Shown here one piece after another: positions 29,101 through 38,100 of a stretch of DNA of 64,000 nt. Below the pieces are notes generated by a model. That model had not been told where the DNA came from, did not search any database, and worked only from the letters and a program-made list of their open reading frames with translations. The position numbers and the translations under genes were made by a program. The stretch spans positions 186,001 to 250,000 of the forward strand of contig OX597817.1 of assembly GCA_951406725.2 (NCBI GenBank). The letters are read 5' to 3'. Numbering within the stretch: the stretch's first letter is position 1; the number at the start of each line of letters is the position of its first letter. This stretch comes from Octopus vulgaris. Lineage: Eukaryota.

Positions 29101-32100
29101 ATTCGACCAATTCTCCTGAGCCTATTCTGTTATTATTATATCAGTTTCAGTGAGAGAGGTCACCTCATTTGGCTTGACCTGAGAATATTCATTTTCTGGT
29201 AACTTCCCTTAGAAGAATTCTCTCTTCTTGACTGGAGAGAATATGATATGATTCATCAGTGTCCTCTATTTAGTCTTTCACGGAAGCATCTAGGGACATA
29301 CGTCATGTCATTAAGACGACATTCTAATATTTGTTATATGAGCTGAAATGATCTGCTTTTTACACAATGATCCTAAGAAGAACCTAACTCAACGTCTTAC
29401 GATGGAATAAACAAGACTTATTCCGATTGTAACCTTTGCTTCATTCAAAATACCAAGGAATAAACTGTGTAAAAATGTAAAACACGCAAAAACATTGTCA
29501 TTCGATCATCTGTTTAGCCTAAAACAACAATATATTTTAATCCCTTCTTCCAAAAGACAATATCTACTCAACTGTATTTTATCAATTTATCCAGATAACC
29601 AACCTTACTAACCTCAAGATTTACTAATTTTACATTAATATATTTAATAGAATTATTTTACAGTTAACATTTCAAATGGAATGCAACTGGTTCTCAGTCA
29701 TAAAGGCTCAAATGAAGGTAAAATTTACAGAAATCAATTAGGTATTGTTATTTTCTACTCACCAACTTTCCACCAATTGCCTCCTAACTGACATGCCAAC
29801 TTTAGGAGATACCTCTCATCCAGTTTTTGAAAACCTGAAATAAATATCTCCATGGTTTACACTTTACAGTAGAATCTCTTAATATTTATTAATAAAGTAT
29901 ATCTTATCATAAGATATTCTTATCTTCAATGTTCGCTCAACATTTTTATAAGTTTTACAATGGTACCATATATTAGCTCAATATTCAGGTCCACCACACA
30001 ATAGACTAACCTTTCTAATTTTCTTTTTTTAATTAAGGCATCCAACATATGAAGGTCCGCTTAGAGTTTCATACGATGACAAATACGCTCACATAGAATG
30101 TGACCAAATGAAGTCTATTTTTCAACACAGTCCCCCTTGAGGTCCACACACTTCTTCCATTCGTGTTTTAGTTCTTGAATGAATTTCATTTGTGAACAAG
30201 CTTTCATCCTGTTGCTAAAATAATTCATCAACAGACGATATAATTTCATCATCATTACGATGACGATTCCCAACCGAGTATTTTTGAAAGTTGATGGACA
30301 AACGATAGTCAGAAGGGGGTAAATCGGGGGAAGAAGGAAGGTGATCAACTAGTTCAAATCCAGGGCCATGCTCAACAGCCATTGAAGGTAAGGACGTATG
30401 TGCTGGGGCATTGTCTTCTTTTGATGATACAAAACCCTTTGCATTAGTTTCCCGGGGCATTTGGTCTCGATAGTCTTTTGTAACTGCTTCAGTAAGATGG
30501 CACAATACCCTCCATCGATGGCAGAGCCCTTCTGAAATTAGTCAATAAACACAATGCCTTTTGTATCACAAAAACCTGAGACTATCCACTTCCATGCAGA
30601 TGAAACGATGTTGGCCTTCCTTGGAACAGGTAAAGACGTGTGTTTCTACTGCATGGATTATCTTTTTGTCCGAGGCTCAAAGTGTTTAATCCAACACTCA
30701 TCGTAGCTTAAGAATGGTTCAAGGAATTCAGCTGAGTCTGCTTCAAGCAATGTCGGATTTTAGAAGAATGTGATCAGCCTAGTGTGCTTTTGATCAGGTC
30801 TCAGAAGACGTGGCACCCACCAAACAGAAACCATTGTCATGCCAAGTGCAGAATATTCTCAAATCTGTCACGGAAAATGCTAATACCATTGGCTATTTGA
30901 TTTATAGTCAATCACCCGTCATCCATCACCATGCGGTGAAAATGTTAAATGTTTTCCTCGGTGGTGAAAGTAGCAGGACGTCCAGACATTGGGTCCTTTT
31001 CAATACTCTCAGTTCGCCTCCTAAATTCAACTGTCCACTTTTGCACAGTTGATAAAGTTGGAGTGTCATCACCTAATATAGCAACCATGTCAGCATTCTC
31101 GCCCTTGGGGAATAAACCCTTTTTTCTGCACGATGTCATATTTTGTTCATTTTCAAAAAAGGTCGCTACTAGTCACATTACAAGTCTTCTTTGAACATTC
31201 AGTTGTCAATTTACATGGAATCAAAAAGTGCAGTTATTAATAAGAAGTGTTGAAATTAATGCATGCTAGATTTTACACGCTACACTCTACATTTGCACAA
31301 ACCTCATTAACTTCATATAACTAATTATCCACACCTTATGGCGGTGAAAAATATCTGAAATGGTACACAAGAACGGATGCTCAAGAATATATACGCAAGA
31401 CGGAGATATAGATCAAACTGGACGCAGCAAATCTTGTTTTTTCCGAGACGTCCTCACCTATCTATTGCTTATAACCCATCCTCTCTTTCTGCCTCTACTC
31501 TTATTGGACAATGAGGTAGTGTACCATTGTCCTAAACATTTTACAGGTTTCTTTTCAACCTTTGACATGGTTTCACCTGCTATTTTGAACTTCTTCTGAT
31601 GACCTTTGACAACTGACAGACTGTATTACTTATTAGCTTTAAACCACACTCTTGACCAAGTAATTAGTCCATCCAGTCTATCCAGGACGATCTGGATATC
31701 ATTTTACTCTCTTGTTATTATTGTTATATCATCAATCATCAATTAATGCCTTCTCAGGTGATTTCACTTGAGCCATTTCTTCTGATCAATCTGCTGATCT
31801 AAGTAGCTTCTCCATAACAAGCTCAAATGACCGATATTGTGCAACCTACAGGTATTTCAATTTCAAGACGATCCCACTCTGTTGTGAAATTTTCTGCCAT
31901 GAACTGCATTTTGAAATTGTTATAGCAGCTCTTCATCAGATAATATTTTCCAGTATATAAAAGAAGTCCATTCCTTTCATCAACAACTGATTGGAGCTAT
32001 CTACTGAGTGGTACAGAACCAGAAGCATTAGCCAGATCAAACCATACAACATTCAACTCCTTTTTACTCTCCTGTCTGTCTTGTATGCATCCCAGATTGA

Positions 32101-35100: not shown

Positions 35101-38100
35101 ATTTCTGTACTTTCTACAGTGGTCTCATGTAATAGCCCAATATGTCCACAATAAAACAGACTAACATTTCTAAATCCATCAGCTCTCTCTCTCTCTCTCT
35201 CTCTCTCTCTCTCTCTCTCTCTCTCTCTCTCCCTCTCTCTCTCTCTCTAAAAACACATTAAATATTCTAACAATGTTGCAATTATCTCATTTAATTAACA
35301 CTTGATGACAGTTTTCTCTTAGCATTGTCTTTCTTTTCTTATAACTGTGCCAAATCTATGGCATGGCACAGTCCTCTCATCTCTAGAATTCACTAATCAA
35401 CATTCCTCTCTAATTAAGTAAAACTGAGGCCATAAAGATGTCCTTTATGTGCATACCCTCCACCCCGCACACAATCTGTCCCCTAAAAATCATCTCCACA
35501 AGCCAAATTGCATACACCCTTCCCCAACATGATCCCTAACAAGATATAAAATGTAAGGTGAGGGTACACGATGTTCCTATGACAAAATATGTTTACATTT
35601 CAGACATACAAATGTAAGAGAGTTAATGAATTATAGCTTATTAATTATCATGATAATTAGGTATATATGTGATACAATGGCACTGTGCTTGACGGTGCAA
35701 TATTAGATATCAATATAGATTGTATATAATCTGAGTAAAGAACGTATAACCTTCATTACAATGAATATGATTGTGTCTCAGCACAGCTAATATTATCGTA
35801 GTTCCATGAGCAAACGAAGAAAGATATAACCAAGTCCACTGCCAAATACTAATGATTAATTCATTTCCTGGTCAAATAACAATGACTAACTTCCATTAAA
35901 TAATTTGAACGCAACAATCAAGACCAAAGGGTGAAACGCTCAGAAAACTGTGCCTCTTTTAGCATTAATATCATCTAAAATCTAACAAGAGTGAGAAAAA
36001 GAATGACTATATGGATGGTAAATGTTGTTCAAACAATGTAATAAGTGTATATTATATATAGTTACAAACAAGGATTTGTGAGATCAAGTCACACAGGGAA
36101 CTCATATTTAATTCCTTTCTTTATAATTTATGTCAACACCAATATTTTGTTTAAATGCAAACGGATGTTCACCGTTCAATACTAAATTTAATATTTAATC
36201 AACGTTAATGATCATTATACTTATACTCTTAGAGATTTGATTTTTAATCTTGTTAATTTCTTATAATTCGGGGTACGTACCTAAACAACGTATCCTGACA
36301 GACATCTTGAAGTGTGACATCTTAAAATTAGATAAAGACAATATTTAGTGGATGTAGTGATAGATATACTCTCACAAAGAAAAGACCCCAGGAACACCTA
36401 TCATAAATCTGTCCCAATATGAAGTACCTGGGTCTACACGAAAGCTTGAAGCACATTATTCCACACAATAAGGTCAACAAGACAACAAACAGAGCCCCAA
36501 AGATTATCTTACCAAATTCTCTTTTGCTGAGTGTGTATTCTCGACACACGGGGCATCTCTTAAATGTCATTTCAGAAGAACAATTCTCGCAGAGAACAAG
36601 ATCTCCACATGGTTGCAGTCTCACGGTGGCCATGTTCTCATGACAATAGCGACATCTATGGAACAAAATATAAACACATTTCATCAATAACATTCATGTA
36701 TATCAATTTTTACATGGTATACATATTTACAGCACAAAATATTATGAAACTCTGCAGTGACCTCCATGAGTGTCTCACAATTTCTATTTTAAAGAACCAC
36801 GTTCGGACAGATTTATGTGTGTATAAGTGCTACGCAGACACACACACGTATATATTTATACAGGTACTGTTAAATATACGTCTTGACTCTGATATATTAC
36901 AAAAGCAGTACACCACATATATTCCAAAACCATACTTCACTTCTAGACTCCATTTCTGCTGAACAAAACTATATATGTACACAACTGTGTGCCTATATAC
37001 GAGGTCTGATCAATAAGTATCAGGATTGTTGCTATAGTAACGAAGCAAAAACACGCAGAGTGAAGACGCTTGGCAAAGATTGATCTCAACCTGTGCTTTA
37101 CATGCGCACTAATTTTTTATGTTCTAGCTCATACCCGCTGTTTACAGCAGTGCTTGGAAGCTTACGTAAAGTTGCAGAAAGTGTATGGAGAGGAGTGTAT
37201 GAGCCACACACACATGTAAGAATGGTTCAGACATTTTAAGTATGGCCGAAAATGTCGATATTGACGAACATTCTGGAAGATCTGCAACGAGCAGAACTGA
37301 GAAAAAACATTGCTGATGTGCGTACAGTTGTGTGGGTAAACCGTCGAATTACCATCCTTGAATTATCAGAGGATGTGCAGGTTAGTTACGGTTCGGGCCA
37401 TTACCACTGAAGATTTGGCTTTCAGACGCCTGTCTGCCAAATATGTGAAAGAACTGCTTTCAGCAGACCAAAAGGACACACGGGTTTCAGTTGCACCAGA
37501 TGTCCTTGATTGTGTCAGGGACGATGAAATATTATTGAAAACTTTCTATGGCCCTCTGAGCAGGAATCGTCAAACGTTTGACAAAATTTGATGCAGATTC
37601 TCTGCTCAACTCTCTATATCATGGTCAATGTGACGATCACACGCTACACACCTTCCTTCCAAGCACTGCTGTAAACAGTGGAAATGCTCTAGAAAGTCAA
37701 AACTTAGCGTGCATGCATAATAGAGATAAAGGTCAATCTGTGCCAAGCAACTTCACTCTGTGTGCTTTAGCTTTGTTACTATGGCAACAGTCTGGATAGT
37801 TATTGATAAGATCATGTCCAAACATTTATATATATATATATAAAACACTTCATTGTATCTAATCTGCTTCACAAGTCCTCTATATTTAGACAACTGGCTT
37901 TGAATTTTATGGCTGGAGAGACGGGTTACATTTGCTATAGCTTCATATATACGAGATCCGTATAACAAAACAAGTCACTGTTCTAAAATAGAAGAATGCT
38001 TTGAGAATACAATACAATGTATATGTACAAAACTGTAGAACATTTTAAAAACAGATGAGTTGACTGCAATAAATGCAATGTTTCTATGCTCCATTAACTT

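What the first reader, a model, noticed from the sequence alone, without database searches (positions are those of the whole stretch)
29590..35185. Linker exons arose by serial duplication of the first death-domain exon with its introns
Seen: three homologous exon-plus-flank units at about 29590-30020 (exon 11), 33790-34187 (exon 10) and 34640-35185 (exon 9). They share the acceptor ATATTTATTTCAG, the donor context (A/G)TTG|GTGAGTA, internal CATGTCAG..TTAGG and GGCAATTGGTG (exons 9 and 11), and intron motifs such as TTACAGAAATCAATT and AGACTAAC.TTTCTAA. Units 9 and 10 are much closer to each other. Inference: a death-domain helix exon (DERYLLK) was copied and remodelled into a short-linear-motif exon (EDRCVQT), then duplicated again.
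Basis: seen in the sequence. Interest (0 to 1): 0.72.

Follow-up and report, generated by a model that had tools for sequence, protein, structure and literature searches.

The report
Death-domain helix recycled into linker motifs
In a family of octopus ankyrin-RING-death-domain genes, small linker exons are copies, introns included, of the exon that starts the death domain; they now spell a short motif predicted to bind the dimerising protein LC8, and their number varies between genes and by splicing, which would trace how a piece of a folded domain became a repeatable binding site.

Summary
Observation confirmed. The window holds a 12-exon minus-strand ankyrin-RING-linker-death-domain (DD) gene matching Octopus vulgaris CAI9720564.1. 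Exons 9, 10 and 11 lie in homologous units. Introns alone are about 69-70% identical to unit 11 (z 12-16 against shuffles in three of four flank tests) and 84-90% identical between units 9 and 10. RNA-type contigs join all three exons, and exon 9 is optional. Direction is DD to linker: exon 11 aligns with helix 1 of PIDD1-like DDs, while the linker is predicted disordered.

Octopus paralogues carry 0-6 such units and appear to swap them between RING and DD types. The DD exon closest to exons 9 and 10 lies in another paralogue (ERCLQDVA), not exon 11 (DERYLLK, itself derived). One quoted match (GGCAATTGGTG) is not positionally homologous.

New: the motif D-K/R-C-V-Q-T-E fits the published LC8-binding consensus. 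Binding is untested, about half the family units lack the anchor, and no purifying selection shows between exons 9 and 10. The exon-9 cassette is multi-copy; partial dispersal is not excluded.

The parts
41912..59445 (-). Exons 1-7, ankyrin-repeat region (approx. 59445-59368, 54600-54446, 53327-53171, 50131-49977, about 49015-48975, 43963-43753, 42087-41912)
   Evidence: Pfam ankyrin hits on P0001
36513..36655 (-). Exon 8, RING finger (C3HC4_3 type; best solved matches are cIAP/XIAP/MYLIP RINGs); ends in phase 1
34625..35173 (-). Unit 9: exon 9 with homologous upstream and downstream intron
34883..34960 (-). Exon 9, 78 nt, phase 1-1, [25 protein letters not shown]; optional exon; LC8-type motif DRCVQTE
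   Evidence: joints RING-9, 9-10 and RING-10
34270..34631 (.). Very high-copy SINE-like repeat plus (GAT)n lying between units 9 and 10 (the SINE label is inferred from depth and size)
33761..34188 (-). Unit 10: exon 10 with homologous introns; the upstream flank is shorter than in units 9 and 11
34037..34093 (-). Exon 10, 57 nt, phase 1-1, [18 protein letters not shown]; equals exon 9 minus 7 codons; DKCVQTE fits all 7 positions of the LC8 consensus
   Evidence: PMC3078936
29550..30018 (-). Unit 11: first death-domain exon with homologous introns
29763..29834 (-). Exon 11, 72 nt, phase 1-1, [23 protein letters not shown]; death-domain helix 1 and start of helix 2
25896..26101 (-). Exon 12, rest of the death domain and the stop codon
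   Evidence: joint 11-12

Best explanation
Exons 9 and 10 are copies of a death-domain first exon, introns included, that were likely freed from the fold and remodelled into a disordered peptide predicted to bind the dimeric hub protein LC8, and that were then likely multiplied and swapped among paralogues by unequal crossing-over. Steps: (1) SHOWN: exons 9, 10 and 11 and their flanks are homologous, all phase 1-1 with lengths in multiples of three, so any number can be added or skipped in frame. (2) WELL SUPPORTED: the DD state is ancestral. (3) INFERRED: the copied helix already carried E/D-K/R in register with motif positions -4/-3, and in some paralogues Q at position 0 (E-R-C-L-Q-D), so a few substitutions gave D-K/R-x-V-Q-T. 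(4) SHOWN in annotated proteins: 0-6 units per protein, with the same unit types behind different RINGs and before different DDs; recombination between homologous introns is the INFERRED cause. (5) SHOWN in RNA-type contigs: forms with and without exon 9, giving two motifs or one. (6) PREDICTED: LC8 pairs two chains between RING and DD, which would favour RING dimerisation and DD clustering, with avidity set by exon number.
For: Flank homology and controls. Splice joints with GT-AG ends, and exon 9 skipping in 3 of 4 runs. The family profile hits PIDD1 DD at E 2.5e-7 with LLxVAxRLG..W aligned to the DD1 exon. Foldseek ranks 1-37 for the paralogue model are almost all death domains. AlphaFold puts helix 325-345 in exon 11 and pLDDT below 50 over exon 10, residues 300-320. 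L at unit position 10 is present in 31 of 31 family DD1 and 45 of 46 outgroup DD1, against V in 17 of 23 linker clusters. A DD1-only profile scores 17 of 23 linker clusters above nearly all shuffles (15 or fewer of 500). Exon 9 vs P0037 DD1: 11 identities, score 45, next best 26. K/R-x-[TVI]-Q-[TV] occurs 36 times in 2385 linker residues, 0 in 7804 residues of the ankyrin part and 0 in 3317 DD residues (copies are not independent). It is kept in 13 of 23 clusters, as both VQT and TQT, with position -2 variable. The LCA5 peptide with KGVQT binds LC8 at Kd 2.6-8.1 uM (PMC9481538, passages read), and KGVQT occurs in P0002, P0019, P0032 and P0033.
Against: No binding was tested or modelled. 28 of 54 unit heads lack the anchor (VKK, VQR, VKT, VWT and others; the 54 include a few mis-segmented stretches). 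Exon 9 vs 10 shows pN 0.14 and pS 0.17, with exon identity (46/54) equal to intron identity (268/313, p 1.0), so no purifying selection is visible, on only 18 codons. Many anchor-bearing peptides failed to bind LC8 by ITC (31 of 53 phage-selected peptides showed no binding; PMC6607443, passages read). V and F at +2 in some paralogues are disfavoured there. Some mosaic paralogues could be chimeric gene models. Exon 9 shares R-[CY] and C-Q specifically with exon 11, and these are derived in exon 11's clade, which fits later conversion or a second origin rather than one clean series. RNA contigs were laid at 85% identity, so paralogue transcripts may supply some joints.
Confidence: 0.62

Rival explanations
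1. The origin is the same, but the linker exons are tolerated, nearly neutral spacers. VQT is a frozen accident of one early copy, and copy number drifts by unequal crossing-over.
For: pN is about equal to pS for both 9/10 and 9/11. About half of the unit heads lack the anchor. Linker-less family proteins exist (for example P0018, P0034, P0045, P0050, P0051, P0053), and a DNA joint 31393-36331 lacks the whole exon 9-10 block in 3 of 4 runs.
Against: The anchor persists in 13 of 23 divergent clusters and in 3 of 10 named O. bimaculoides proteins, while position -2 varies freely. One lineage has the canonical TQT (KETQT).
Confidence: 0.22
2. Simple in-place series: this gene's exon 11 was copied to give exon 9, which was then copied to give exon 10.
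For: The order and sister relation fit. Exon 9 keeps full DD1 length and shares AGG-T[AG]T and CATGTCAG..TTAGG with exon 11. Exon 9 and 10 types were seen in 0 of 10 named O. bimaculoides proteins.
Against: Exon 11 is not the closest DD1. The 9+10 block occurs with other RINGs and DDs. About 30% intron divergence is old for a lineage-specific copy (inference). DNA contigs show units whose flanks switch between unit 9/10-like and unit 11-like sequence (joints 34991-29863, 29740-34868, 29768-34092).
Confidence: 0.08
3. The flanks belong to a mobile or dispersed repeat that carries splice sites, and the exons were exonised from it or carried by it.
For: Summed contig depth over exon 9 is 6.6-21 times the RING bin and within about 0.4-3.5-fold of a mariner relic in 4 of 4 DNA-type runs. 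The tool warns that this is not a copy number.
Against: Depths at units 10 and 11 are close to the RING exon (0.3-2.3 times); the neighbouring SINE-like repeat is 49-848 times deeper than exon 9. There are only three copies in 64 kb, each centred on a spliced exon. Proteins with 3-4 tandem exon-9 copies and a 9-to-9 RNA joint offer a simpler source for the depth. The exon-11 sequence matches ancient DDs.
Confidence: 0.04
4. The exons encode a different motif, for example a TRAF2-type site ([PSAT]x[QE]E, recalled and from no call): TCQE in exon 9, ASEE in exon 10.
For: The pattern is present in both exons and 27 times in 2385 linker residues; it fits death-receptor signalling as a theme.
Against: The pattern is very degenerate: also 21 times in 3317 DD residues and 7 times in 7804 ankyrin-part residues. 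It is less conserved across unit types than VQT.
Confidence: 0.04

Closest known systems
Tandem exon duplication and exon shuffling (PMC9013439, passages read; PMC9741552 and PMC8373072, search listing only)
   Same: Adjacent homologous exons with homologous introns, frame-preserving and alternatively spliced.
   Different: The cases described there are mostly mutually exclusive substitutions or repeats of like modules. Here the copies are used together (9-10 joint), and the copy has left the parent fold and reads as a linear motif.
Multivalent LC8 clients: ASCIZ, Nup159 (PMC5963919, passages read), LCA5 (PMC9481538, passages read)
   Same: Several TQT/VQT-anchored motifs in a disordered stretch next to oligomerising domains; some sites weak or degenerate.
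   Different: Binding is shown for those clients and only predicted here. Here each motif is one exon, traceable to a death-domain helix, and varies in number between paralogues and isoforms.
Ex nihilo SLiM birth (PMC4654906, passages read); SLiM-bearing alternative exons of the NCoR family (PMC4554918, abstract and outline)
   Same: A motif is gained by a few substitutions, and motif number is adjusted by splicing.
   Different: The raw material is a duplicated exon of a folded domain with pre-existing matching residues, not a pre-existing disordered region.
PIDD1 death domain (PDB 2of5, 9tuf) and cIAP/XIAP RING (3eb5, 6hpr)
   Same: Best solved matches of the family's DD (E 2.5e-7) and RING (E 9e-7).
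   Different: Different architecture (ankyrins-RING-linker-DD); no LRR, ZU5 or BIR domain in the Pfam scan of P0001; orthology is not shown.
Mind bomb MIB1/MIB2 (database label of P0001)
   Same: Ankyrin repeats followed by a C3HC4_3 RING.
   Different: No MIB/HERC2, ZZ or Mib-repeat domain was detected, there is one RING, and a DD is added. The label is by similarity only.

Membership tests
Tandem exon duplication | Homologous adjacent exons with homologous flanking introns | tested here: met
Tandem exon duplication | All copies are real, frame-compatible exons | tested here: met
   Phase 1-1, 78/57/72 nt; joints (runs guessed to be RNA, laid at 85%)
Mutually exclusive duplicated exons | Only one copy per transcript | tested here: not met
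   9-10 joint in 1 of 4 runs and 10-11 joint in 2 of 4 runs; proteins with both, such as P0014 and P0020
LC8-binding motif | Consensus [D/S]K.[T/V/I]Q[T/V][D/E] (PMC3078936) | tested here: met
   Exon 10 fits 7 of 7 positions. Exon 9 fits 6 of 7, with R at -3, which PMC6607443 describes as often K or R
LC8-binding motif | No proline at -4 to 0 and no bulky aromatic at -2 | tested here: met
   Sequences; rules in PMC3078936 and PMC6607443 passages
LC8-binding motif | Lies in a disordered segment | tested here: met
   pLDDT below 50 over residues 300-320 of P0001 (exon 10) and 42-82 of the P0033 stretch; prediction only, and exon 9 itself was not in a model
LC8-binding motif | Flanked by a dimerisation or oligomerisation domain | tested here: inconclusive
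   IAP-like RING and DD are adjacent; their oligomerisation is recalled family knowledge and was not tested
LC8-binding motif | Physical binding to LC8 | not testable with these tools
Death domain (PF00531) | Six-helix death fold and profile match that include the exon-11 helix | tested here: met
   PDB profile hits to PIDD1, RIPK1, ankyrin and RAIDD DDs; Foldseek probability 1.0, target TM 0.7-0.8 but E above 0.001; Pfam hits just under the cut-off (P0003 22.2 vs 22.6 bits), none for full-length P0001
Mind bomb (MIB1/MIB2) | N-terminal MIB/HERC2-ZZ and Mib-repeat domains (definition recalled) | tested here: not met
   Absent from the Pfam scans of P0001, P0002 and P0004; the start codon is at 59445
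Dispersed high-copy repeat | Many copies outside the gene family | tested here: inconclusive
   No genome is held; depth is high for unit 9 only and far below the SINE-like repeat

The most novel reading that the evidence does not exclude
An octopus lineage turned the first helix of a death domain into an LC8-docking exon cassette and uses it as a counter. Dozens of ankyrin-RING-DD ligases carry from none to long arrays of these cassettes (exon-9 depth suggests about ten per RING of this type, more than any annotated protein shows), exchange them through their homologous introns, and tune them by splicing. LC8 valency would then set the oligomer state of a fast-evolving family of cell-death or immune ubiquitin ligases. 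This would be a traceable route from folded domain to short linear motif by exon duplication.
Probability: 0.35. Interest if true: 0.8.

Novelty: new variant of a known kind. Interest (0 to 1): 0.62.

Why it matters
How short linear motifs arise is poorly documented; the review read here (PMC4654906) frames it as birth from random disordered sequence. This locus keeps the DNA record of another route. The parent helix, a near-intermediate (E-R-C-L-Q-D) and many derived motif exons coexist in one family, with introns still alignable, so each substitution can be tested for LC8 binding with peptides. It also points to an Octopus gene family mislabelled MIB2-like, with a PIDD-like death domain and modular linkers. 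I found no paper on it in two searches (listings only, closed-access papers not covered), and none on this route in two more.

Tried and rejected
No whole genome is held, so unit copies could not be mapped and paralogue introns could not be read. The protein searches gave no named squid, cuttlefish or Nautilus member. Only 20 of the newly listed HMMER hits were looked up (19 Octopus; 1 Argonauta hians DD protein with no anchor motif), 340 of 490 hits were not listed, and coverage of those taxa is unknown, so this is not evidence of absence. No holder run is on record as RNA; RNA status rests on GT-AG joints. The wide fold search of the full model returned only ankyrin folds and says nothing on the DD. 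The DD tree is poorly resolved at depth (13 of 40 inner branches starred; bootstrap not settled), so no order of linker gains was inferred from it. Extending the alignments beyond the unit ends gave no convincing further homology. Faster change in exon than intron for 9/11 is only a trend (39/69 vs 194/281, p 0.06), and pN/pS about 0.9 does not show positive selection. The segmentation missed or shifted units in P0016, P0019 and P0032; one search includes about 4 clusters that are not DD1-like. GGCAATTGGTG was rejected as evidence. Earlier-finding look-ups near the locus, by sequence and by words found nothing. No complex was predicted. The LC8Pred matrices (supplements of PMC6607443) were not read, so the motifs were not scored quantitatively.
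Full report
Gene. The finding lies in a minus-strand gene of 12 exons from 59445 to 25896: seven ankyrin exons, a RING exon (36655-36513), exons 9 and 10, and two death-domain (DD) exons. Exon 12 is 100% identical to the end of P0001, listed as CAI9720564.1, Octopus vulgaris 'MIB2-like'. That model omits exons 6 and 9. No whole genome is held.

Observation. The three units are real. With splice signals removed, intron flanks of units 9 and 11 align at z 11.6 and 15.1, and of units 10 and 11 at z 3.8 and 15.7, against 500 dinucleotide shuffles. 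26 of 26 control comparisons with other exons' flanks give z 1.9 or less. Intron identity is 72/80 and 196/233 for 9/10, 54/77 and 140/204 for 9/11, and 54/77 and 141/204 for 10/11. Three-way sites group 9 with 10 (64 vs 13 and 15). Exon similarity alone is weak (9/11: 39/69 nt, 6 of 23 residues; z 3.9), so the introns carry the proof. Exon 10 equals exon 9 minus seven codons. The quoted GGCAATTGGTG is 11 nt out of register between exons 9 and 11 and should be dropped.

Splicing. Four runs guessed to be RNA were laid at 85% identity (15 joints shown, 87 not). Joints match the predicted intron lengths: 11-12 in 3 of 4 runs, 10-11 in 2 of 4, RING-10 (skipping 9) in 3 of 4, RING-9 in 3 of 4 and 9-10 in 1 of 4. 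One run has a 9-to-9 joint. Exon 9 is therefore an optional cassette and not mutually exclusive with exon 10. Paralogue transcripts may contribute.

Direction. A profile of six family C-termini hits the PIDD1 DD best (E 2.5e-7), with the DD1 exon aligned to LLSVAGRLGLDW. The paralogue model matches solved DDs by fold (probability 1.0, E 0.005 and weaker). AlphaFold makes exon 11 helical and exon 10 disordered. L at unit position 10 is present in 31 of 31 family and 45 of 46 outgroup DD1 sequences, against V in 17 of 23 linker clusters. The DD state is thus ancestral.

Family. Searches returned many paralogues; every named ankyrin-RING-DD member is from O. vulgaris, O. sinensis or O. bimaculoides. 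Of 74 family proteins examined (isoforms included), 44 have one to six linker units and 30 have none detected. A DD1-only profile recognises 17 of 23 unit clusters. Some 17-residue units keep DD1 relics such as TKRV and AKRV. Exon-9-type units follow at least three RING types and precede at least four DD1 types, and the 9+10 block occurs with other RINGs and DDs. DNA-type contigs show units with flanks switching between unit types and a form lacking the whole 9-10 block. Module exchange is the inferred cause; chimeric gene models are an alternative for some rows. Among 77 DD1 helices the best match to both exons is P0037 (O. sinensis XP_029656683.1, TPKLEERCLQDVAKLLGANWQQV; 11 identities to exon 9); exon 11 ranks 11th and 65th. 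Exon 11 is derived within its clade: 15/23 identical to O. bimaculoides P0003, against 54/63 for exon 12. Its C-Q is shared with exon 9, which may reflect later conversion or a second origin; this is unresolved. Linker units with the anchor occur in 3 of 10 named O. bimaculoides proteins and exon 9/10 types in 0 of 10.

Motif. DKCVQTE (exon 10) fits all seven positions of the LC8 consensus [D/S]K.[T/V/I]Q[T/V][D/E] (PMC3078936, abstract and passages). DRCVQTE (exon 9) differs only by R at -3, a pocket often filled by K or R (PMC6607443, passages). Positions -4 and -3 pre-exist in the DD helix. An LCA5 peptide containing KGVQT binds LC8 at 2.6-8.1 uM (PMC9481538, passages), and KGVQT recurs in four paralogues. 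The pattern is confined to linkers (36 vs 0 and 0). Against this: 28 of 54 unit heads lack the anchor, pN is about equal to pS between exons 9 and 10 (0.14 vs 0.17), and anchor matches often fail to bind in the cited work. Multivalent clients do tolerate weak sites (PMC5963919, passages). Binding was not tested or modelled.

Mechanism, committed. A symmetric DD1 exon was duplicated with about 260 nt upstream and 210 nt or more downstream (shown). The spare copy, relieved of folding, gained VQT by a few substitutions (inferred). Homologous introns then allowed repeated unequal exchange (inferred). LC8 would bind one site per exon, about 15-40 residues after the IAP-like RING, pairing chains and promoting RING and DD oligomers (predicted; RING dimerisation is recalled knowledge). 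Confidence: about 0.85 for origin and direction, about 0.6 with LC8 binding included.

Repeat rival. Summed depth at units 10 and 11 is 0.3-2.3 times the RING bin, at exon 9 it is 6.6-21 times, and the adjacent SINE-like repeat is 49-848 times deeper still (the tool states that this is no copy number). Tandem arrays of the exon-9 cassette (four copies in P0031 and P0049) are the simplest reading, but dispersal cannot be excluded without a genome.

Comparison and verdict. It works like known tandem exon duplication and, if binding holds, like multivalent LC8 clients. It is not a mutually exclusive exon pair and not a Mind bomb member. Searches for the family and for the route showed no matching paper in their listings; closed-access literature is not covered, and no supplements were read. 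PMC9013439 and PMC4654906 were read as passages, PMC4554918 as abstract and outline. Verdict: a real and well-supported evolutionary feature, a new variant of a known process, with a specific and cheaply testable functional prediction. Interest 0.62.

Noticed in passing
window 34607-36208: The exon-9 cassette with about 1.25 kb of upstream intron has much higher summed depth than its neighbours in 4 of 4 DNA-type runs. A joint 36259-34334 (X10, table 5c) may be a head-to-tail junction of a cassette of about 1.9 kb, or a SINE insertion in a paralogue.
   Followed up: partly
window 31393 and 36331: A DNA joint skips 4937 nt, including exons 9 and 10, in 3 of 4 runs (43 nt on the shorter side): a linker-less paralogue or allele.
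   Followed up: no
window 43963-43753: An intact ankyrin exon (exon 6), present in paralogues, is missing from the public model CAI9720564.1, as is exon 9.
   Followed up: partly
P0107 (O. sinensis XP_036370839.1), C-terminus: A unit reading SKLEAKCLQVRVEKSKCEWQQV looks like a DD1 exon partway through remodelling; the model ends in intron read-through.
   Followed up: no
P0004, P0010, P0021, P0023, P0043, P0047: Annotated isoforms skip the DD1 exon in frame, which would remove helix 1 and likely disable the death domain.
   Followed up: no
P0003-P0009, P0061: Other family members, and an O. bimaculoides adhesion GPCR with a related DD, have long STSQ-repeat linkers before the DD.
   Followed up: no
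window 30130-31200, 31400-33200, 27900-28600: Broken mariner-like, reverse-transcriptase-like and integrase-like relics lie in introns 10 and 11 (labels from recalled motifs in six-frame translations).
   Followed up: no
window 16120-19236, 2392-2, 62394-60321: Long LINE-type endonuclease/RT reading frames and a Penelope-like RT-GIY-YIG element (labels recalled).
   Followed up: no
window 5998-7280 and 54645-56849: Kilobase-long purine-rich and pyrimidine-rich low-complexity tracts on opposite strands; the second lies in intron 1.
   Followed up: no
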